Shown here: piece by piece, positions 32,201 through 57,545 of the stretch
Position numbering within the stretch: the stretch's first letter is position 1
Layout of the letters: every line of letters begins with the position of its first letter
NCBI GenBank assembly: GCA_947589325.1
Contig: CANQAM010000003.1
Span: forward strand, 16,959 to 80,958
Source: an uncultured Bacteroidales bacterium
Lineage (GTDB): Bacteria; Bacteroidota; Bacteroidia; Bacteroidales; UBA11471
Reading direction: 5' to 3'
Length of the DNA: 64,000 nucleotides
The notes under the pieces: generated by a model
What the model saw: the letters and a program-made list of their open reading frames with translations, nothing else
Told to the model about the DNA's origin: nothing
Databases searched by the model: none
Program-made: the position numbers and the translations under genes

Positions 32201-32252
32201 TCAATCGCTCTATCCGGCTACCGCTCATTTCTCCGAAAAAATATCCGAGTAA
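29250..32252 (+). CDS. Fusion protein: GH3 NagZ-like beta-N-acetylhexosaminidase domain plus class C/AmpH-like serine beta-lactamase-fold hydrolase domain
   Basis: Signal peptide. N-terminal GH3 motifs (RIGQLF, ITLDGEWG, KHFPGHGDTHEDSHQTLP). C-terminal SxxK motif in YDLASITKVMATLP and YSDLNF. 1000 aa. Confidence 0.85.
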   Translation: MKKIVVFLLGIAACFPVKAAPTRLYAGADTAAMNRWVESVMRTLSVPERIGQLFVAGVETKMTDANRAAIKEYVEHCHVGGLLFFAGTPEDQLALTLEAQSAARVPLLITLDGEWGLAMRLSGTPVFPRNMTLGAVQNDSLIYAYGREMGRACRRMGIQVNFAPVLDVNSNPLNPVIGIRSFGENPEEVARRAIAYAAGLEDEGVMAVGKHFPGHGDTHEDSHQTLPLVARTREQFDTCDLYPFRRSIEAGLSGIMAAHLRVPALDSASRPSSLSPIIVTDLLQKELGFEGLVFTDALAMKGAVSATPSLDALRAGNDVLLDPLHLQREYDSLVEAYNNGELSEEVIDAHCRKILRYKYLLGLNHYEPVSVEGLRQDLNTLEARKLIRQLSAQAVTVARNQEERLPFTHLDKSGFGVVVIGKNDANAFLTRLREYVPLTYVVRLNAETGDKEIATARRTVGKTRTIVAVFSNDAKEVQMAQKVLSDADKTLVFFTSPYRAERYRKLIRQSDAVVFAYEGYDVMQECAAETLFGGNAASGRLPVSVGNLFRQGDGIDIDVSRLGHAFPEEVGMDSRALSRIDSIVREGIDSMAFPGCQILVSRHKKIVYERAFGYFDYEKTHAVRLDDIYDLASITKVMATLPAIMWLNDHEQVRLAAPLGFYLPELRDHGLSAITLRQTLMHESGLPATIPLRRLLLDPDSYPSPLLKRHRDSEYRIQVDRNWYAYKDCRLKPWLVNDTETPDFSLPVTDKLYADKHLPDTIWNAILSVNRMKEPVYKYSDLNFIILQKLTERISGEGLDRFIEKRLLRPIGAYRTTFRPTLKFDSTRIAPTEYDAFLRHQLIDGYPHDELACFMGGVSGNAGLFSNARDLAKILQMLQDKGSYGNEEYLEPTTVQLFVTTKSSRSRRGLGFDKPDTGHPHRSPTCEEAPASVYGHTGYTGTAFWVDPDNDLIYIFLCNRVYPHRWNTRLQDMNIRTRIQSVIYQSLYPATAHFSEKISE

Positions 32253-32692
32253 AACACCTCTTTCCAATTGGCAACCTTATGCCCGTCGGGTGCCGTGCAG
32301 TTGTCGATATGGGTCGCACAATGACTTTCCGATATGAATGCCGCTTCGACCGCCGAGACGATGCGTACGCAAACCGGCGACATCATGCGTCGCAGCGCCG
32401 GCGCCGCACTTATCGACAAAGGACTGGAAAGACTTATGGGAACGAAAGTGCGTCCCGTCAGCCTGTCGGCTTCGATGCGCTCGGAAAGTCGCAGCCACTC
32501 GCCGGGCAGTACGGCGTCGCTCCAATGCGTGGAAAGTAATAGCAAAACATCGTATTTCGACAATATTGCCGACGTCAATGCCGAAACGTGCATCACGTCG
32601 GCTGCCGGCAGCGCCAGCCGCGATTTCAGCTTTTCTGCGGCATCTCCTTTTTGGGCAGAGGTGTCGTAGACAATGGCGATTTTTTCTTTCAT
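32225..32692 (-). CDS. Flavodoxin-like fold protein (hypothetical)
   Basis: MKEKIAIVYDTSAQKGDAAEKLK...YDVLLLLSTHW: flavodoxin-like beta-alpha pattern. Start trimmed to MKEKIAIVY. Converges on and overlaps the GH3 fusion gene 3' end by 28 nt. Confidence 0.5.
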   Translation of the reverse strand: MKEKIAIVYDTSAQKGDAAEKLKSRLALPAADVMHVSALTSAILSKYDVLLLLSTHWSDAVLPGEWLRLSERIEADRLTGRTFVPISLSSPLSISAAPALRRMMSPVCVRIVSAVEAAFISESHCATHIDNCTAPDGHKVANWKEVFYSDIFSEK

Positions 32693-32846: not shown

Positions 32847-32854
32847 TATATTTG
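32847..32854 (+). promoter_or_regulatory. -7 promoter motif TATATTTG upstream of the three-gene GNAT-like/PAPS-reductase-like/ParB-like operon
   Basis: Exact TAnnTTTG match 31 nt upstream of ATG 32885. It overlaps the track's TTG start at 32852, which argues against that start. Confidence 0.45.
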
Positions 32855-32884
32855 CCAAAATCTCAGGTCGTAAAAATCTGCGTT

Positions 32885-33313
32885 ATGAAAATCGAGAAAT
32901 TAGGAGGCACCTCGCCCCAACTCTACAAATTAGTCGCTCCGTTGGTTTTGGATCCCGATGTGCTGCGGCAGAACAATAATTGTCCGTTTCGGACGACAGA
33001 ACACCACGAATGGCTGGTGGCAACCGACGACGAAGGGACGACGGCAAAAGCCTTTTTCCCGATAGAACGCCGATTGACGTATTGGTATATCAATAATTAT
33101 TTTGTTCCCGAACAAGATGAAAAACAGATATTGAAAGTCTTTGTACGCGAAGCAAAACGTCTTTGTGAAAAGAAAATGCCGGTTGTCATCGTAGCCCTTG
33201 CACGTCATGCGGATTTCTTGTATGAAAAAGGTTTTTCGATAGAAAAGGAATGGAAGTTATACGTAAAGATGAAATATGTCAAGCCCGAAAGGAAAACGCA
33301 GAAACGTATATGA
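32885..33313 (+). CDS. Small protein with GNAT-like C-terminal half, function unknown (142 aa)
   Basis: C-terminal pattern KMPVVIVALARHADFLYEKGFSIEKEW resembles the GNAT beta-alpha-beta core (..FYxKxGF..). I found no clear Q/RxxGxG/A acetyl-CoA motif. The 3' end overlaps the next gene by 38 nt. Confidence 0.6.
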   Translation: MKIEKLGGTSPQLYKLVAPLVLDPDVLRQNNNCPFRTTEHHEWLVATDDEGTTAKAFFPIERRLTYWYINNYFVPEQDEKQILKVFVREAKRLCEKKMPVVIVALARHADFLYEKGFSIEKEWKLYVKMKYVKPERKTQKRI

Positions 33314-34586
33314 TGCGGCTCTCTCTCGTATAGAAAAAGTTTTTACGGATTTCGATAATGTTTACGTTTCTTTCTCGGGCGGGAAAGACAGTACCGTATT
33401 GTTGAACCTCTGTATCGACTATATCCGCCGGAATAAACTGAAACGCCGTTTGGGAGTTTTCCACATGGATTACGAGGTGCAATACACCGAAACGATACGT
33501 TTCGTGGAAAAAGTCTTTTCGCAAAATACCGACATTCTCGATATTTACAGAGTGTGCGTCCCGTTCAAGGTAGCTACGTGTACGTCGATGTACCAAAGTT
33601 TCTGGCGCCCGTGGGACGAAGAGCAGAAACACCTCTGGGTGCGGGAAATGCCGCGTTCTTCGTTGCAGAAAGAAGATTTCCCGTTTTTCTCCGACGATAT
33701 GTGGGACTACGATTTCCAAGTGGAATTTTCGGAGTGGATTCATCAGTATCGTCAAGCCCGGCGAACGTGTTGTCTGGTAGGAATCCGCACGCAGGAGAGT
33801 TTCAACCGGTGGCGCGCCATTCACAGCGATAAAAATTATTGTTGTTACGAACATTTGAAGTGGACGCGCAAAATTGCGGATAATGTGTATAATGCATATC
33901 CCATATACGATTGGCTTACGACCGATATATGGGTGGCGAACGGGCGCTTCGGCTGGCCGTACAATCATCTCTATGACCTCTATTATCAAGCCGGTGTGCC
34001 TATCGAGAAACAGCGGGTGGCGAGTCCGTTCATTTCGGCGGCGATACCCAGTCTGCAACTCTATCGGGTTATCGACCCGCAGACGTGGGGTCGCATGATT
34101 AATCGGGTGAACGGAGTCAATTTCGCCAATATTTACGGCGATACGCCTGCAATGGGGTGGTACACGGTGAAACTTCCGAAAGGCATGACATGGGAAAAAT
34201 ACATGCACTTCCTGCTGAGTACGCTGCCGGAAAACATACGGAACGGCTATCTCGAAAAATTGCGGGTAAGCATCGAGTTCTGGCGCACGAAAGGCGGCGT
34301 GCTTGCCGATGAAACCATCGAGAAGCTGCGGAACATGGGCATCGACATAGTGGTGGGCGAAACGACCAACTATCATACGACCAAGAAGCCGGTGCGCATG
34401 GAGTATCTCGACGATATAGATATAGAAGAATTCAGGGAGCTGCCCTCGTTCAAACGTATGTGCATCTGCATTTTGAAGAATGACCATTCGTGTAAATACA
34501 TGGGATTTTCACCCAATAAAGTAGAACGGGAACGCCGCGACCGAATTATGGAAAAATATAACAGCTATTTCAAAAAAGATGAATGA
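33276..34586 (+). CDS. PP-loop ATP pyrophosphatase of the PAPS-reductase family with long C-terminal extension (IbrA-like)
   Basis: PP-loop VYVSFSGGKDSTVLLN, 436 aa. The C-terminal ~200 aa extend beyond the reductase-like core, as in IbrA/DUF3440-type proteins. Confidence 0.8.
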   Translation: MSSPKGKRRNVYDAALSRIEKVFTDFDNVYVSFSGGKDSTVLLNLCIDYIRRNKLKRRLGVFHMDYEVQYTETIRFVEKVFSQNTDILDIYRVCVPFKVATCTSMYQSFWRPWDEEQKHLWVREMPRSSLQKEDFPFFSDDMWDYDFQVEFSEWIHQYRQARRTCCLVGIRTQESFNRWRAIHSDKNYCCYEHLKWTRKIADNVYNAYPIYDWLTTDIWVANGRFGWPYNHLYDLYYQAGVPIEKQRVASPFISAAIPSLQLYRVIDPQTWGRMINRVNGVNFANIYGDTPAMGWYTVKLPKGMTWEKYMHFLLSTLPENIRNGYLEKLRVSIEFWRTKGGVLADETIEKLRNMGIDIVVGETTNYHTTKKPVRMEYLDDIDIEEFRELPSFKRMCICILKNDHSCKYMGFSPNKVERERRDRIMEKYNSYFKKDE

Positions 34587-35094
34587 GGAAAGATATAAAA
34601 GCCCTGTATATAAAGTAATTGCTGTTCCCGTCGATAAAGTGATGGCGAATGCCTATAACCCGAATGTGGTGGCTCCGCCGGAAATGAAGCTGCTTGAAAT
34701 TTCGATTTGGGAAGACGGTTATACCATGCCCTGCGTCTGCTACTATGTCGCCGATAAAGATATGTATGAGTTGGTGGACGGGTATCACCGCTATATGGTG
34801 TTGAAAACTTCGCGCCGTATTTATGAACGGGAACACGGGCTGCTGCCCGTTGTCGTTATCGAAAAAGACCTGTCCAACCGCATGGCTTCGACGATACGCC
34901 ATAATCGTGCACGAGGTACGCACAATGTCGAACTGATGAGCGAAATCGTAGCGGAGCTTACCAAGGCGGGTATGTCCGACCGTTGGATTCAGCACCATAT
35001 CGGTATGGATAAAGATGAATTGCTGCGCCTGAAGCAGATAACCGGTCTTGCCGAACTTTTTGCCAACCAAGATTTCAGCGTCGCCGACGATTGA
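34579..35094 (+). CDS. ParB/sulfiredoxin-fold (ParB N-terminal domain) protein (IbrB-like)
   Basis: 171 aa, VDGYHRY and STIRHNRARGTH motifs typical of ParB-like nuclease/NTP-binding domains. The start overlaps the upstream stop (ATGAATGA). Confidence 0.75.
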   Translation: MNEERYKSPVYKVIAVPVDKVMANAYNPNVVAPPEMKLLEISIWEDGYTMPCVCYYVADKDMYELVDGYHRYMVLKTSRRIYEREHGLLPVVVIEKDLSNRMASTIRHNRARGTHNVELMSEIVAELTKAGMSDRWIQHHIGMDKDELLRLKQITGLAELFANQDFSVADD

Positions 35095-35127: not shown

Positions 35128-36009
35128 TTATCGAAGGCGCAGCACCATGCCTGCCTGCGGCGGGTTTTCTTGTGAAATATGGTTGCGGCGTATCAACACT
35201 TTTAGCTTGATGCCGTATTTCTGCGAAACATCATGTATCGATTCTCCCCGTAAAAGTGTGTGCTCGGTATTGCCTTTCAGGGCCCTGCGCCGTTTGACTT
35301 TAAGGTAAACGACATCTCCGGCGTTTAATTTGTAGCCGCGCGGAAAATCGTTGAATCGCCGCAGCTGATAACGATACTTTTCAAATTCGCGGGCAATCAG
35401 TTTCAGGTTGTCGCCTTCTCTTGCCACGACATAGGGCAATTTGCCGAGATGTTCCACATCGTGAAATTCGTAATCTTTGGGTACGCGCGGCATACCCTTG
35501 CCGTCGTAGCGGTGCAGGCCGTACAGCTCGATGGTCTGTATCAATTTGTTGGCGTATGCCTTGTCGGTAGCGTAGCCGCACTCTTTCAGTCCGCGCGCCC
35601 ACCCTTTGTAATCGGTTACGGAGAGTTTGAACAGCTTGTCGTAGCGGGGACTTCGGGTTAGAAACCGCGCATGGTCTTCATACGACTCTTTGGGATTTTT
35701 GTATTTTCGGAAACATTCGCCTTTCTCGTCGTCGTCGTGATACACGCGCTTGCCGTCCCATGAATTGTGGCATTTGATGCCGAAGTGGTTGTTCGACTTC
35801 CGTGCCAGTTCGCTCTGTCCTGCGCTCGATTCGAGAAGCCCTTGTGCCAGCGTGATGCTGGCGGGAATTTTGTATCGCCGCTGATGTTCCATGGCAACGT
35901 CCCGATAAGTGCGGATATATTCGAGATAAATGGGATTTTTTTTCTGCCCGACAATGGTTGCTGCCGTAAAAATCAGAAAGAAAAATAATAGGCGATAACG
36001 AATGGACAT
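35128..36009 (-). CDS. Glucosaminidase (mannosyl-glycoprotein endo-beta-N-acetylglucosaminidase) domain protein with two LysM domains
   Basis: Signal/TM anchor, ITLAQGLLESSAGQSELARKSNNHFGIK (GH73-type), two C-terminal LysM repeats (YVVAREGDNLKLIA..., HTLLRGESIHDVSQKYGI...). Start trimmed to MSIRYRLLFF. Confidence 0.82.
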   Translation of the reverse strand: MSIRYRLLFFFLIFTAATIVGQKKNPIYLEYIRTYRDVAMEHQRRYKIPASITLAQGLLESSAGQSELARKSNNHFGIKCHNSWDGKRVYHDDDEKGECFRKYKNPKESYEDHARFLTRSPRYDKLFKLSVTDYKGWARGLKECGYATDKAYANKLIQTIELYGLHRYDGKGMPRVPKDYEFHDVEHLGKLPYVVAREGDNLKLIAREFEKYRYQLRRFNDFPRGYKLNAGDVVYLKVKRRRALKGNTEHTLLRGESIHDVSQKYGIKLKVLIRRNHISQENPPQAGMVLRLR

Positions 36010-55625: not shown

Positions 55626-55633
55626 TACTTTTG
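55626..55633 (+). promoter_or_regulatory. -7 promoter motif TACTTTTG upstream of the SRP RNA
   Basis: Exact TAnnTTTG match a few nt upstream of the predicted SRP RNA 5' end. Confidence 0.45.
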
Positions 55634-55635
55634 CG

Positions 55636-55736
55636 GCGGGTAAGTCCTACACGGCCAGCTCCCTGTCAATCCCCCAGGGCTTGACCGCAGCAAGGGCAGC
55701 AGGTCGTAGCGGCGCGATGTAGATCGCTTACCCTCT
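55636..55736 (+). ncRNA. ffs: Signal recognition particle RNA (small bacterial SRP / 4.5S-like)
   Basis: ccagggcttgaccgcagcaagggcag...gatgtagatcgc parallels E. coli 4.5S CCAGGUCAGGUCCGGAAGGAAGCAGCCAAGGCAG...GGAUGUAGCUGGC. Terminal helix gggtaag (55638-44) pairs with cttaccc (55727-33). The ends are approximate. Confidence 0.65.
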
Positions 55737-55737
55737 T

Positions 55738-55810
55738 GCCGATATAGCTCAGTTGGTAGAGCAACGGTTTTGTAAACCGTCGGTCGTGGGTTCGAGTCCC
55801 TCTATCGGCT
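55738..55810 (+). tRNA. tRNA-Thr (anticodon UGU)
   Basis: Acceptor gccgata/tatcggc, D arm gctc-agttggta-gagc, anticodon arm acggt-ttTGTaa-accgt, T arm gtggg-ttcgagt-ccctc (one U-U mismatch). Confidence 0.85.
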
Positions 55811-57017: not shown

Positions 57018-57090
57018 TGACCCCGGAGGGGCTCGAACCCTCGACCCAATGATTAAGAGTCATTTGCTCTACCAGCTGAGCTACGGAGTC
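57018..57090 (-). tRNA. tRNA-Lys (anticodon CUU)
   Basis: Reverse complement folds as gactccg-ta-gctc-agctggta-gagc-a-aatga-ctCTTaa-tcatt-gggtc-gaggg-ttcgagc-ccctc-cggggtc-a. Confidence 0.9.
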
Positions 57091-57104
57091 ATTTTTTTCG
57101 GGGA

Positions 57105-57112
57105 CAAAAGTA
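57105..57112 (-). promoter_or_regulatory. -7 promoter motif (TACTTTTG on minus strand) upstream of tRNA-Lys
   Basis: Plus-strand caaaagta, 15 nt upstream of the tRNA 5' end. Confidence 0.45.
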
Positions 57113-57250
57113 ATGCTTTTTACCGAACCCGCAAAAATTATTCTTTCTTTTTTCGTTTGAAAATTTTTTTGAATCGTCCGTCGAAGCGGATATTGATGTC
57201 CGTTGTAAAAAAAATCTCGATTTTTGTATTGATATATTCAAATCAATAAT

Positions 57251-57258
57251 TACCTTTG
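57251..57258 (+). promoter_or_regulatory. -7 promoter motif TACCTTTG upstream of tRNA-Pro
   Basis: Exact TAnnTTTG match 18 nt upstream of the tRNA 5' end. Confidence 0.45.
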
Positions 57259-57275
57259 CAGTCGCAAAAGCCAAT

Positions 57276-57348
57276 CGGGGTGTAGCACAGTTGGCAGCGC
57301 GCCACGTTCGGGACGTGGAGGTCGGAAGTTCGAGTCTTCTCACCCCGA
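57276..57348 (+). tRNA. tRNA-Pro (anticodon CGG)
   Basis: Acceptor cggggtg/caccccg, anticodon arm ccacg-ttCGGga-cgtgg, T arm ggaag-ttcgagt-cttct. One A-C mismatch in the D stem. Confidence 0.85.
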
Positions 57349-57352
57349 CAGA

Positions 57353-57385
57353 AAATCCGCTCGATTCATCGGGCGGATTTTTTTG
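57353..57385 (+). terminator. Rho-independent terminator after tRNA-Pro
   Basis: aaatccgc..tcgattcatc..gggcggattt hairpin followed by ttttttt. Confidence 0.7.
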
Positions 57386-57428
57386 TTTTCTGTCCCGTGC
57401 GGTCGTGGGCAGCGGTTGGTCTTGTAGG

Positions 57429-57468
57429 TAAAAAAATCGGAAGCCGGCTTATGCAAGCCGGCTTCCGA
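57429..57468 (-). terminator. Rho-independent terminator after tRNA-Arg (minus strand)
   Basis: atcggaagccggctt-atgc-aagccggcttccgat, a 15-bp stem abutting the tRNA 3' end, then a T-run on the minus strand (plus aaaaaaa). Confidence 0.8.
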
Positions 57469-57545
57469 TGGTGACCCCGACGGGATTCAAACCCATAACC
57501 TTCTGATCCGTAGTCAGATGCTCTATTCAGTTAAGCTACGGGGCC
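57469..57545 (-). tRNA. tRNA-Arg (anticodon ACG), CCA encoded
   Basis: Reverse complement: ggccccg-ta-gctt-aactgaata-gagc-a-tctga-ctACGga-tcaga-aggtt-atggg-tttgaat-cccgt-cggggtc-a-cca. Confidence 0.9.

What the first reader, a model, noticed from the sequence alone, without database searches (positions are those of the whole stretch)
32847..35094. Three-gene overlapping operon: GNAT-like protein, PP-loop PAPS-reductase-like protein, ParB/Srx-like protein (IbrAB-like, DndCB-like logic)
One TAnnTTTG promoter motif (32847-32854) precedes three co-directional genes. Their coding regions overlap by 38 nt and 8 nt (ATGAATGA), which implies translational coupling and probably a complex. The middle protein has an intact PP-loop (SFSGGKDS) and a long C-terminal extension. 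The last protein has ParB N-terminal-domain motifs (DGYHRY, IRHNRARG). A PAPS-reductase-like ATP pyrophosphatase paired with a ParB-fold protein is the architecture of E. coli IbrA/IbrB. More distantly, it is also that of DndC/DndB in DNA phosphorothioation, and SspD is likewise a PAPS-reductase-like enzyme. To my knowledge no biochemical activity has been established for IbrAB-type pairs, and the GNAT-like first gene is not part of the described pair. No cysteine desulfurase, restriction-type effector (DndFGH/SspE-like) or integrase lies nearby. This would therefore be a stand-alone module inside a housekeeping region. Hypothesis: it adenylates and modifies a nucleic acid (DNA or tRNA), or it is a regulatory or defence module.
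Basis: partly seen in the sequence, partly recalled or inferred. Interest (0 to 1): 0.65.

Follow-up and report, generated by a model that had tools for sequence, protein, structure and literature searches.

The report
Conserved Bacteroidales IbrAB-like three-gene operon
Three tightly packed genes (a divergent GNAT-fold protein, an IbrA/YbdN-type ATP-using enzyme and an IbrB/YbdM-type ParB-like protein) form an operon kept intact across the gut order Bacteroidales; two of the proteins are very strongly conserved, and no biochemical function was found for any of them.

Summary
ORF1 (32885-33313), ORF2 (33276-34586) and ORF3 (34579-35094) lie on the + strand, overlap by 38 and 8 nt (ATGAATGA), and follow a TAnnTTTG motif at 32847-32854.

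- **ORF2** is PAPS_reduct + DUF3440 with an intact SGGKDS PP-loop. It is 31% identical to E. coli YbdN.
- **ORF3** is a ParB/Srx-type protein, 51% identical to E. coli YbdM.
- **ORF1** matches no sequence family. Its confident model (pLDDT 91) is a GNAT fold closest to ElaA, without the canonical acetyl-CoA loop motif.

New here: the triplet is syntenic in every one of 80 Bacteroidales species loci where the contig allows a check. Its flanks are not conserved, and the promoter motif recurs in 55 of 78 loci. ORF3 and ORF2 are at least as conserved as neighbouring DnaX and more conserved than Cdd.

Outside Bacteroidales only the ORF2/ORF3 pair occurs. It is mostly on phages and plasmids, in sampled phages beside SNF2 helicases, DNA methyltransferases or terminases.

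Dnd, Ssp, BREX, sulfate-assimilation and partition readings fail their membership tests.

The most likely function is a DNA-directed, ATP-dependent modifying or regulatory complex. This is inferred, not shown.

The parts
32847..32854 (+). TATATTTG, a Bacteroides-type TAnnTTTG promoter (-7) motif 31 nt upstream of the ORF1 ATG
   Evidence: Read. The same motif lies within 120 nt upstream of the ORF1 orthologue in 55 of 78 species, against 5.9% background.
32885..33313 (+). ORF1, 142 aa: a Bacteroidales-restricted orphan family with a GNAT fold (ElaA-like). GNAT motif B is kept (F112, G116, F117); the motif A loop is absent.
   Evidence: AF2 model pLDDT 91.4. Foldseek PDB top hit ElaA 5z6n, E 6e-8, TM 0.70, followed by further GNAT acyltransferase structures. 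No Pfam, NCBIfam or PHROG hit. Only 387 relatives among 1.84 billion representatives. Loop composition.
33276..34586 (+). ORF2, 436 aa: IbrA/YbdN-type protein. It has an N-terminal PAPS-reductase-like PP-loop domain (residues 29-237, nt 33360-33986) and C-terminal DUF3440 (residues 240-419, nt 33993-34532).
   Evidence: Pfam PAPS_reduct 55 bits and DUF3440 300.8 bits. 31% identity to E. coli YbdN, E 3e-62. 55-56% identity to Streptococcus phage IbrA. The N-terminal domain of the model matches PAPS reductase, FAD synthase, CysD and LarE folds.
33369..33392 (+). PP-loop SFSGGKDS (ORF2 residues 32-39)
   Evidence: FSGGKDS is invariant from Bacteroidales to E. coli and to phages of three phyla.
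33276..33313 (+). 38-nt overlap of ORF1 and ORF2 (different frames)
   Evidence: Overlap or a gap of 6 nt or less at this junction in all 67 orthologous loci measured, median -23.
34579..35094 (+). ORF3, 171 aa: IbrB/YbdM-type ParB/Srx-fold protein with a helical C-terminal region. An HTH there is inferred from the sequence pattern and by analogy with ParB, not tested.
   Evidence: 51% identity to E. coli YbdM, E 1e-53. The profile hits the Noc ParB-N domain 7ol9 at 9e-5. NCBIfam Noc 5.7e-4 and SerK 5.6e-3. PHROG 2159, 1.4e-73. 71-91% identity across Bacteroidales and up to 68% to Mycobacterium phage Gaia gp104.
34777..34794 (+). DGYHRY, the DGxHR motif of the ParB/Srx superfamily. It aligns with the GERRWR box of Noc.
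   Evidence: VDG-x-HR is invariant in the cross-phylum alignment.
34894..34917 (+). IRHNRARG motif
   Evidence: TIRHNRARGxH is invariant in all seven sequences from Bacteroidales, E. coli and phages.
34579..34586 (+). ATGAATGA, the 8-nt overlap of the ORF2 stop and the ORF3 start
   Evidence: The median junction is -10 nt over 68 loci.
35149..35175 (+). Possible intrinsic terminator (7-bp G+C-rich stem, then a T-rich tail) 55 nt after the ORF3 stop, inside the 3' end of the convergent gene. Low confidence.
   Evidence: Consensus scan. Four such sites were found in the region against 2.9 expected, so this is not significant by itself.

Best explanation
**Shown.** This is a self-contained, own-promoter, three-gene operon inherited as a unit throughout Bacteroidales. 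It encodes:
- an IbrA/YbdN-type PP-loop protein (PAPS-reductase-like domain + DUF3440);
- an IbrB/YbdM-type ParB/Srx-fold protein;
- a lineage-specific, fast-evolving GNAT-fold protein that replaces the helicase or methyltransferase partners seen beside the pair in phages.

**Inferred mechanism.** The three products form a complex that acts on DNA.
1. The ParB-like subunit binds a nucleotide through its DGxHR and RHNRARG motifs, and binds DNA through its C-terminal helical region.
2. It positions the IbrA-like subunit, which spends ATP through its intact SGGKDS PP-loop to adenylate a target group. This would be AMP transfer or activation, as in CysD, FAD synthase, TilS or QueC, rather than sulfur insertion, because no cysteine is conserved across the family.
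3. The GNAT-fold subunit supplies or positions the group that replaces AMP, or simply provides target recognition.

The outcome would be a covalent mark on DNA, or an equivalent DNA-bound state, that changes how that DNA is read. In Bacteroidales the module looks like a domesticated housekeeping version of what is elsewhere a phage and plasmid cassette.
For: **Identity of the proteins:**

**Unit character**
- Of 80 species loci, 79 have the ORF1 homologue directly upstream and 79 have ORF3 downstream. The two exceptions are cut by contig ends.
- No fourth conserved gene exists, and flanks are conserved only within the family.
- Junctions are overlapping or nearly so, and the promoter motif is conserved.
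- Pairwise-identity matrices of the three proteins correlate at r 0.67-0.78; for the pair tested (ORF1 against ORF3), 0 of 500 permutations reached the observed value.

**Strength of selection**
- At family level ORF3 is 88-91% and ORF2 76-83% identical, against DnaX 66-88% and Cdd 64-66%.
- ORF3 keeps 60-68% identity to Streptococcus, Listeria and Mycobacterium phage proteins.

**Link to DNA**
- In phages the pair sits next to SNF2-type helicases.
- It also sits next to a second ParB-like gene plus a DNA methyltransferase.
- In Mycobacterium phage Gadjet it lies directly upstream of the large terminase subunit; in Arthrobacter phage Salgado a methyltransferase and the small terminase subunit lie between the pair and the large terminase subunit.
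- The ParB-N domain of ORF3 also matches a phage DNA-methyltransferase family.

**ATP chemistry without sulfur**
- FSGGKDS, D65, E67, R171, E174, S175 and R178 are invariant, but no cysteine is.

**Precedent**
- Mom of phage Mu is a GNAT-fold enzyme that modifies DNA without acetyl-CoA (PMC13219725).
Against: - No modification, DNA binding, ATPase activity or complex formation was measured.
- The only phenotype I know of for the family is activation of prophage eib expression by E. coli IbrAB (Sandt, Hopper and Hill 2002, from my own knowledge, not read here). That fits a pure regulator equally well.
- In E. coli K-12, ybdNM is simply a repressed operon of unknown role (PMC9068703).
- I know of no unexplained DNA modification reported for the much-sequenced Bacteroides genomes (own knowledge).
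- ORF1 lacks the Q/RxxGxG/A loop and may be catalytically inert.
- The pair works without ORF1 everywhere else.
- The DNA link rests on gene neighbourhoods in phages, not in Bacteroidales.
- The C-terminal half of the ORF2 model has low confidence (pLDDT 45-80).
Confidence: 0.35

Rival explanations
1. A transcriptional co-activator or anti-silencing module with no covalent change to nucleic acid. The ParB-like protein binds specific DNA as a nucleotide-gated switch, in the manner of VirB, KorB or Noc. The PP-loop protein and the GNAT-fold protein tune it, for example by sensing a metabolite or consuming ATP.
For: - E. coli IbrAB is needed for expression of prophage eib genes (own knowledge: Sandt et al. 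2002), and annotations call the pair 'co-activator of prophage gene expression'.
- ORF3 has a ParB-N domain plus a helical C-terminal region.
- There is no restriction-type partner.
- The pair stands alone on IncF plasmids.
Against: - A mere regulator rarely keeps a fully intact PP-loop and about 45 invariant residues in its enzyme partner from Bacteroidales to actinophages.
- The recurrent linkage with methyltransferases, SNF2 helicases and terminases points to work on bulk DNA rather than on one promoter.
Confidence: 0.25
2. A housekeeping tRNA or rRNA modification complex. The PP-loop enzyme adenylates a base, as in TilS, TtcA or MnmA, and the GNAT-fold protein adds or positions a group.
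For: - The operon is core-like, vertically inherited and highly conserved in Bacteroidales.
- PP-loop relatives include many tRNA modifiers, and TilS and NcsA appear among the fold matches.
- GNAT domains modify tRNA in TmcA and Elp3 (own knowledge).
Against: - No RNA-binding domain such as THUMP or PUA was found.
- The partner is a ParB-type protein.
- The pair is carried by 226 phage and more than 700 plasmid records and sits beside DNA enzymes there.
- E. coli strains carry it sporadically on plasmids, which is not the pattern of a universal RNA modifier.
Confidence: 0.12
3. An enzyme pair acting on a small molecule or a protein, with no nucleic-acid target. For example, ORF2 adenylates or nucleotidylates a metabolite, the Srx/SerK-like ORF3 acts as a phosphotransferase, and the GNAT protein acylates.
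For: - The nearest solved folds to the ORF2 N-terminal domain are small-molecule enzymes: PAPS reductase, FAD synthase and CysD.
- ORF3 weakly matches archaeal serine kinase SerK.
- Mycobacterium phage Gaia fuses IbrB to an ectoine-synthase-like cupin.
Against: - No transporter or pathway gene is co-conserved.
- The phage neighbourhoods are made of DNA enzymes.
- The extreme conservation across phyla suggests a universal macromolecular target.
Confidence: 0.1
4. A Dnd/Ssp/BREX-type-4-like DNA phosphorothioation or anti-phage defence module.
For: - ORF2 gives weak partial PADLOC hits to BrxP (1.3e-7) and DndC (5.4e-7).
- DndB is also a ParB/Srx-superfamily protein (PMC12839542).
Against: - The DndC equivalog score is 21.7 bits against a cut-off of 290.
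- No DndB or DGQHR model hits ORF3.
- There is no desulfurase, DndD/E, SspB/C, PglZ or effector in the window or in any of the 80 loci.
- No cysteine is conserved family-wide, so there is no persulfide or Fe-S site.
- The operon is inherited vertically and is not in a variable island.
Confidence: 0.04
5. Assimilatory sulfate reduction (CysH or CysD).
For: The Pfam PAPS_reduct domain and database names such as 'phosphoadenosine phosphosulfate reductase'.
Against: - NCBIfam CysH scores 19 bits against a cut-off of 154, and CysD 26 bits against 195.
- There is no conserved catalytic cysteine.
- The protein has an extra DUF3440 domain, an obligate ParB-like partner, and is carried by phages and plasmids.
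Confidence: 0.01

Closest known systems
E. coli IbrA/IbrB and their K-12 paralogues YbdN/YbdM
   Same: - Same two-domain architecture for ORF2: PAPS_reduct + DUF3440 with an intact PP-loop.
- Same ParB-like partner with the DGxHR and RHNRARG motifs.
- Same gene order and an overlapping junction; ybdN and ybdM overlap by 29 nt.
- 31% and 51% identity to YbdN and YbdM.
   Different: - The Bacteroidales operon has a third, upstream, overlapping GNAT-fold gene that E. coli lacks.
- It is fixed in the chromosome across an order rather than sporadic on islands and plasmids.
- ORF2 carries a roughly 45-residue insert (about residues 340-385) that is missing in YbdN.
Phage and plasmid IbrAB cassettes (PHROG 2302 + PHROG 2159)
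   Same: Clear orthologues: 55-56% (ORF2) and 60-66% (ORF3) identity to Streptococcus phage proteins, and 68% to the IbrB part of Mycobacterium phage Gaia gp104.
   Different: - In the phages sampled, the partners are SNF2-type helicases, a second ParB-like protein plus a DNA methyltransferase, or terminases.
- On the IncF plasmids examined the pair has no partner.
- The GNAT-fold ORF1 occurs in none of the phage or plasmid cassettes examined, and a search of the phage collection found it only on four short unannotated faecal contigs.
DndC/DndB (DNA phosphorothioation) and SspD
   Same: A PAPS-reductase-like PP-loop ATPase encoded together with a ParB/Srx-superfamily protein.
   Different: - Far below the DndC model cut-off, and no hit to DndB models.
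- No DndA/D/E or SspA/B/C genes.
- No conserved cysteines for Fe-S or persulfide chemistry.
- The resemblance is at superfamily level only.
E. coli ElaA and the GNAT superfamily; functionally, phage Mu Mom
   Same: - The ORF1 model superposes on ElaA (TM 0.70) and on many GNATs.
- It shares the F...GF motif B and an ElaA-like QN.(C/Y)P(Y/F) stretch.
- Mom shows that a GNAT fold can modify DNA using a donor other than acetyl-CoA (PMC13219725).
   Different: - No acetyltransferase HMM hits ORF1.
- The beta4-alpha3 loop is one residue shorter and lacks Q/RxxGxG/A.
- Mom did not appear among the top 50 structural matches, so no specific kinship to Mom is claimed.
Canonical ParB, Noc and VirB CTP switches
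   Same: An N-terminal ParB fold. The profile aligns ORF3 residues 10-74 with Noc residues 29-94.
   Different: - The GERR arginine patch is GYHR here.
- There is no ParA partner.
- The protein is much shorter (171 aa).
- Nucleotide preference is unknown.

Membership tests
IbrA/YbdN family (PAPS_reduct + DUF3440) | PAPS_reduct domain above Pfam gathering score | tested here: met
   55.0 bits against a cut-off of 22.5, residues 29-237
IbrA/YbdN family (PAPS_reduct + DUF3440) | C-terminal DUF3440 domain | tested here: met
   300.8 bits against a cut-off of 25, full-length match 1-181 of 182
IbrA/YbdN family (PAPS_reduct + DUF3440) | Full-length homology to E. coli YbdN | tested here: met
   31% identity over 417 columns, E 3e-62
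IbrA/YbdN family (PAPS_reduct + DUF3440) | Adjacent, co-directional IbrB/YbdM-type gene | tested here: met
   ORF3 overlaps ORF2 by 8 nt. The same pairing occurs in 79 of 80 loci and in E. coli, phages and plasmids.
IbrA/YbdN family (PAPS_reduct + DUF3440) | Activates eib-type prophage gene expression (the phenotype that named IbrAB) | not testable with these tools
   Needs genetics
IbrB/YbdM family (ParB/Srx fold) | Homology to E. coli YbdM | tested here: met
   51% identity over 161 residues, E 1e-53
IbrB/YbdM family (ParB/Srx fold) | ParB N-terminal domain | tested here: met
   The profile hits the Noc 7ol9 N-terminal domain at 9.1e-5. NCBIfam Noc is 5.7e-4. Pfam ParB_N is on record for several close homologues. 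The single sequence is below Pfam's threshold.
IbrB/YbdM family (ParB/Srx fold) | Invariant DGxHR and TIRHNRARGxH motifs | tested here: met
   Invariant in the cross-phylum alignment
GNAT superfamily (ORF1) | GNAT fold | tested here: met
   AF2 pLDDT 91.4. Foldseek gives 106 PDB matches at E<=1e-3; the 50 listed are GNAT-family acyl/acetyltransferase structures, best ElaA at 6e-8 and TM 0.70. BFVD viral matches are mostly annotated GNAT acetyltransferases as well.
GNAT superfamily (ORF1) | Match to an acetyltransferase sequence model | tested here: not met
   No Acetyltransf family in Pfam or NCBIfam at E<=0.1. hhalign against ElaA gives only 9% probability.
GNAT superfamily (ORF1) | Motif A, Q/R-x-x-G-x-G/A, in the beta4-alpha3 loop (acetyl-CoA pyrophosphate binding) | tested here: not met
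   The loop after INNYY is x-G/x-D and is one residue shorter than in ElaA. No conserved R or Q and no second Gly.
GNAT superfamily (ORF1) | Motif B (A..F..K.GF-like helix alpha4 to strand beta5) | tested here: met
   F112 in 41 of 42, G116 in 39 of 42 and F117 in 42 of 42 sequences. The window protein reads ADFLYEKGF.
GNAT superfamily (ORF1) | Binds acyl-CoA and transfers an acyl group | not testable with these tools
   Needs biochemistry
Dnd phosphorothioation (DndC/DndB) | DndC equivalog score | tested here: not met
   TIGR03183 scores 21.7 bits against a cut-off of 290.4. PADLOC DndC gives only partial hits of 22-27 bits.
Dnd phosphorothioation (DndC/DndB) | DndA/D/E (or SspA/B/C) and restriction genes in the cluster | tested here: not met
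   None in the window neighbourhood. No fourth conserved gene in 80 loci.
Dnd phosphorothioation (DndC/DndB) | Conserved cysteines for an Fe-S cluster or persulfide | tested here: not met
   No cysteine is invariant across the IbrA family. The C94, CC165/166 and C396/398/406 cysteines conserved in Bacteroidales are lost in YbdN or in the phage IbrA sequences compared.
Dnd phosphorothioation (DndC/DndB) | DndB-type (DGQHR) partner | tested here: not met
   No DndB or DpdB model hit for ORF3 in NCBIfam or PADLOC. Only the superfamily motif DGxHR is shared.
BREX type 4 (BrxP) | BrxP full-length match with PglZ, BrxC and other BREX genes | tested here: not met
   28 bits over 71 residues of a 779-position model. 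No BREX genes nearby.
Assimilatory sulfate reduction (CysH/CysD) | Score above the CysH or CysD model cut-offs, and a catalytic C-terminal cysteine | tested here: not met
   CysH scores 19.3 against 154 and CysD 26.1 against 195. No conserved cysteine.
ParABS partition system | ParA partner and the GERR CTP-binding box | tested here: not met
   No ParA gene in any locus. The box reads GYHR.

The most novel reading that the evidence does not exclude
Bacteroidales, the dominant order of gut bacteria, universally carry a domesticated mobile-element module. This module installs a so far undetected, sulfur-independent covalent modification on DNA (or RNA) by a new route: PP-loop adenylation by the IbrA-like enzyme on a ParB-like scaffold, followed by group transfer from a GNAT-fold protein that does not use acetyl-CoA in the usual way. 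Solving it would also reveal what the IbrAB cassettes found here on 226 phage and more than 700 plasmid records do.
Probability: 0.2. Interest if true: 0.85.

Novelty: new variant of a known kind. Interest (0 to 1): 0.58.

Why it matters
- The IbrA/IbrB (YbdN/YbdM) pair is widespread. In the collections searched here it occurs in 226 phage records and more than 700 plasmid records. It is present in E. coli K-12 and in all 80 Bacteroidales species loci retrieved here. No biochemical activity was found for it in the literature available here.
- ORF3 is among the most conserved proteins in its neighbourhood. It is at least as conserved as the DNA polymerase III clamp-loader subunit DnaX (88-91% against 66-88%) and keeps 60-68% identity to proteins of phages that infect other phyla. 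This implies a precise, universal target.
- The Bacteroidales form is chromosomal, has its own promoter, appears once in each retrieved locus, and sits in genetically tractable gut species. It also adds a third, dedicated subunit. That makes the long-open question of what IbrAB does directly testable by deletion, nucleoside mass spectrometry and ChIP.
- If the product is a nucleic-acid mark, it would matter for gut-microbiome epigenetics and for phage and plasmid biology.

Tried and rejected
- **Fe-S or persulfide chemistry in ORF2.** Bacteroidales sequences keep eight cysteines, but the cross-phylum alignment shows none is family-wide. Rejected as a family feature; a lineage-specific metal site remains possible.
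- **Recent horizontal transfer or island.** GC is 41-51% against 54-61% in some neighbours. However, GC3 (0.48-0.59) lies within the window's range of 0.48-0.71, and identities track taxonomy. Rejected.
- **Phage origin of the triplet itself.** Only 6 of 2.9 million viral contigs carry ORF1, most of them within about 2 kb of a contig end. The four GenBank 'Bacteriophage sp.' records that carry it are short unannotated faecal contigs. Rejected.
- **Conserved fourth gene or conserved synteny.** None found.
- **Sigma-70-type promoters.** The scan was at chance level, as expected for Bacteroidales.
- **Literature.** Ten searches found no functional study of IbrAB, YbdNM or DUF3440 beyond regulation of ybdNM by YbdO/CitR. 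The 2013 NAR comparative-genomics paper I wanted was not held. The supplements of the B. thetaiotaomicron fitness paper were not held, so essentiality could not be looked up.
- **Solved homologues.** ORF2 has no homologue of solved structure by sequence.
- **ORF1-ORF2 fusion.** One candidate protein, P0375, was found, but it could be a frameshift artefact and is given no weight.

Full report
**1. The observation**

The three ORFs exist as described.
- ORF1 runs from 32885 (ATG) to 33313. A TTG at 32852 extends the mechanical ORF, but all homologues start at MKIEKL.
- ORF2 runs 33276-34586 and ORF3 34579-35094, all on the + strand and in three different frames.
- The overlaps are 38 nt and 8 nt (ATGAATGA).
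- SFSGGKDS, DGYHRY and IRHNRARG are present at the stated places.
- TATATTTG at 32847-32854 fits the Bacteroides TAnnTTTG motif, 31 nt before the ATG.

A single octamer of this kind means little; my own estimate is about 30 by chance in the window. However, the same motif lies within 120 nt upstream of the orthologous ORF1 in 55 of 78 species, against 5.9% of random windows.

**2. What the proteins are**

*ORF2* is PAPS_reduct (1.4e-14) plus DUF3440 (4.2e-90), so the 'long C-terminal extension' is that domain.
- It is 31% identical over its whole length to E. coli YbdN (3e-62) and 55-56% identical to the IbrA of Streptococcus phages.
- Its AF2 model is moderate overall (pLDDT 70), good in the N-terminal domain and weak in the C-terminal half.
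- The N-terminal domain matches PAPS reductase, FAD synthase/FMN adenylyltransferase, CysD, LarE and tRNA thiolases.
- No solved structure is related by sequence.

*ORF3* is 51% identical to E. coli YbdM (1e-53).
- Its profile aligns with the ParB N-terminal domain of Noc (9e-5), placing DGYHRY on Noc's GERRWR box.
- NCBIfam adds weak Noc and SerK matches.
- Sources name its close homologues 'IbrB-like domain-containing protein'.

*ORF1* hits no Pfam, NCBIfam or PHROG family.
- A confident model (pLDDT 91.4) is a GNAT fold. The best PDB match is E. coli ElaA (E 6e-8, TM 0.70), and the other matches listed are also GNAT acyltransferases (viral library).
- GNAT motif B is kept (F112, G116, F117).
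- The beta4-alpha3 loop lacks Q/RxxGxG/A and is one residue shorter than in ElaA.
- The family is small and closed: 387 relatives among 1.84 billion representatives.

**3. Conservation as a unit**

A scan of one genome per species with ORF2 returned 80 loci spanning Bacteroides, Phocaeicola, Parabacteroides, Prevotellaceae, Muribaculaceae, Rikenellaceae/Alistipes, Odoribacter, Butyricimonas, Dysgonomonas, Tannerella and others.
- An ORF1 homologue lies directly upstream in 79 loci and an ORF3 homologue directly downstream in 79. The two exceptions are cut by contig ends.
- Clustering of all flanking ORFs shows no fourth conserved gene. The window's own neighbours are shared only with family-level relatives.
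- Gene junctions stay overlapping or within a few nucleotides.
- The three pairwise-identity matrices are correlated (r 0.67-0.78; 0 of 500 permutations for the pair tested, ORF1 against ORF3), and identities fall with taxonomic distance. The operon is therefore inherited vertically as one piece.
- Rates differ sharply. Mean pairwise identity is 44% for ORF1, 64% for ORF2 and 77% for ORF3.
- At family level ORF3 (88-91%) and ORF2 (76-83%) are at least as conserved as the adjacent DnaX (66-88%) and more than Cdd (64-66%). ORF1 (52-57%) is the least conserved.
- The window is ordinary Bacteroidales chromosome. It carries ribosomal protein L19, a GH3/beta-lactamase-domain protein, a glucosaminidase-LysM protein, cdd, dnaX, glycoside hydrolases, the Bacteroidales small SRP RNA and tRNAs.
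- GC3 of the operon is within the local range.

**4. The pair elsewhere**

Both ORF2 and ORF3 relatives are found in 226 phage records with the same top-genus breakdown, chiefly Flavobacterium, Mycobacterium, Streptococcus and Arthrobacter. They also occur in 729-773 plasmid records, many of them conjugative IncF plasmids of Klebsiella and E. coli. ORF1 is in none of these apart from four short unannotated faecal contigs, and viral-contig hits lie at contig ends.

In phages the pair has changing partners, all of them DNA enzymes:

| Partner | Phages |
|---|---|
| ~410-aa SNF2-type helicase directly upstream | Streptococcus phage CHPC1062 and Flavobacterium phage FPSV-F7 (helicases 32% identical to each other) |
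| Annotated helicase directly upstream | Lactobacillus phage CR28 |
| Helicase downstream | Fusobacterium phage phiFN37 |
| Second ParB-like gene plus DNA methyltransferase | Arthrobacter, Rhizobium, Bacillus phages |
| Terminase: directly downstream in Gadjet; after a methyltransferase and the small subunit in Salgado | Mycobacterium phage Gadjet, Arthrobacter phage Salgado |
| PD-(D/E)XK protein, and a cupin-IbrB fusion | Mycobacterium phage Gaia |

On IncF plasmids and in E. coli K-12 the pair stands alone.

**5. Mechanistic reading**

*Shown.* The PP-loop FSGGKDS is invariant from Bacteroidales to E. coli and actinophages, together with D65, E67, R171, E174, S175 and R178. No cysteine is invariant. 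In ORF3 the invariant residues include YNPN, VDGxHR and TIRHNRARGxH.

*Inferred.*
- ORF2 is an active ATP pyrophosphatase or adenylyltransferase that does not itself carry sulfur. This separates it from DndC, SspD, CysH, LarE and TtcA chemistry.
- ORF3 is a nucleotide-binding ParB/Srx-type protein that probably also binds DNA.
- Because the pair keeps company with helicases, methyltransferases and terminases, its substrate or platform is most likely DNA.
- ORF1 is a lineage-specific subunit. It could be a group-transfer enzyme with an unusual donor, as the GNAT-fold Mom enzyme uses glycyl-tRNA to modify adenine in DNA (PMC13219725). It could equally be a non-catalytic adaptor.

I put about 0.35 on a DNA-directed covalent modification complex, about 0.25 on a DNA-bound regulator without modification, about 0.12 on RNA modification and about 0.1 on a non-nucleic-acid substrate. 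Defence or phosphorothioation and sulfate assimilation are close to excluded.

**6. Comparison with known systems**

- Membership in the IbrA/YbdN and IbrB/YbdM families is met on every testable feature.
- Membership in Dnd, Ssp, BREX type 4, CysH/CysD and ParABS is not met.
- ORF1 is a GNAT by fold and by motif B, but fails sequence models and motif A.
- The literature held here contains no biochemical function for IbrAB, YbdNM or DUF3440. The only experimental item found is repression of ybdNM by YbdO/CitR (PMC9068703).
- The eib-activation phenotype of IbrAB is from my own knowledge (Sandt, Hopper and Hill 2002).

**7. Verdict**

It is not a new kind of system, because the pair is a named but uncharacterised family. 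The order-wide, vertically inherited triplet with a dedicated GNAT-fold subunit is a new variant. The very strong conservation of ORF3 and ORF2 is notable, and the operon offers a clean route to solving what the family does. Interest 0.58.

Noticed in passing
L092 (Mycobacterium phage Gadjet) 1069-4471; L096 (Arthrobacter phage Salgado) 1284-6303: In these actinophages the PAPS-reductase-like and ParB-like pair lies at the packaging end of the genome. In Gadjet it is immediately upstream of, and overlapping, the large terminase gene, at the position where a small terminase subunit would be expected. In Salgado a second ParB-like gene precedes the pair, and a methyltransferase and the small terminase subunit lie between the pair and the large terminase subunit. 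This hints at a role linked to DNA packaging or to marking DNA before packaging.
   Followed up: partly
L082 3779-5014; L084 2775-3998; L093 2342-3511: Helicases sit directly upstream of, and overlap, the IbrAB pair in phages of three different host phyla. The roughly 410-aa proteins of the Streptococcus and Flavobacterium phages both match the SNF2-related domain and are 32% identical to each other (E 7e-50). The 389-aa protein of Lactobacillus phage CR28 is annotated as a helicase but was not checked here. This looks like an unrecognised three-gene phage module.
   Followed up: partly
L083 3611-4510 (Mycobacterium phage Gaia gp104): An ectoine-synthase-like cupin domain (Pfam 1.3e-32) is fused to the N-terminus of an IbrB-type domain that is 68% identical to the window's ORF3.
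   Followed up: no
protein P0375 (422 aa, metagenomic): An ORF1-like region (residues 65-155) is followed by a PP-loop/PAPS_reduct start (residues 219-271) in one polypeptide. This is either a natural ORF1-ORF2 fusion or a frameshift or gene-calling artefact.
   Followed up: partly
L059, L066, L077; protein P0238: MAG contigs labelled Roseburia, Opitutaceae, Lachnospiraceae and Clostridium carry Bacteroidales-type triplets. The region upstream of the triplet in L077 is nearly identical to that of Bacteroides xylanisolvens L078. These are most likely binning contaminants.
   Followed up: partly
GenBank MT839645, MT835983, MT838936, MT836384; plasmid records OY725755, OY725969, OY726056: Records deposited as 'Bacteriophage sp.' (4-14 kb, unannotated), or listed as plasmids of Parabacteroides, Bacteroides and Phocaeicola (93-143 kb), carry the chromosomal-type triplet or pair at 62-79% identity. 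Their classification as phage or plasmid looks doubtful.
   Followed up: no
window 32228-32692 (- strand): A divergently oriented ORF of about 155 aa lies just upstream of the operon promoter. It has no Pfam hit and is conserved only in the two closest genomes (L001, L005). It is not part of the conserved unit.
   Followed up: partly
window 55631-55810: The Bacteroidales small SRP RNA (112 bits) is immediately followed, without a gap, by a tRNA gene. A cluster of three tRNAs on both strands lies at 57018-57545, and further tRNAs lie at 375, 59488 and 61594.
   Followed up: no
window 33276-34586 (ORF2 residues about 340-385): The Bacteroidales, Streptococcus-phage and Gaia proteins carry a roughly 45-residue insert in DUF3440 (a predicted beta-hairpin and helix region) that is absent from E. 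coli YbdN and the Flavobacterium phage protein. Bacteroidales also keep the lineage-specific cysteines C94, C165/C166 and C396/C398/C406, which could form a metal site.
   Followed up: partly
plasmid searches: Shigella plasmids match the IbrB-like protein in 61 records but the IbrA-like protein in only 7. This suggests decay or loss of the enzyme partner on the Shigella virulence plasmid.
   Followed up: no
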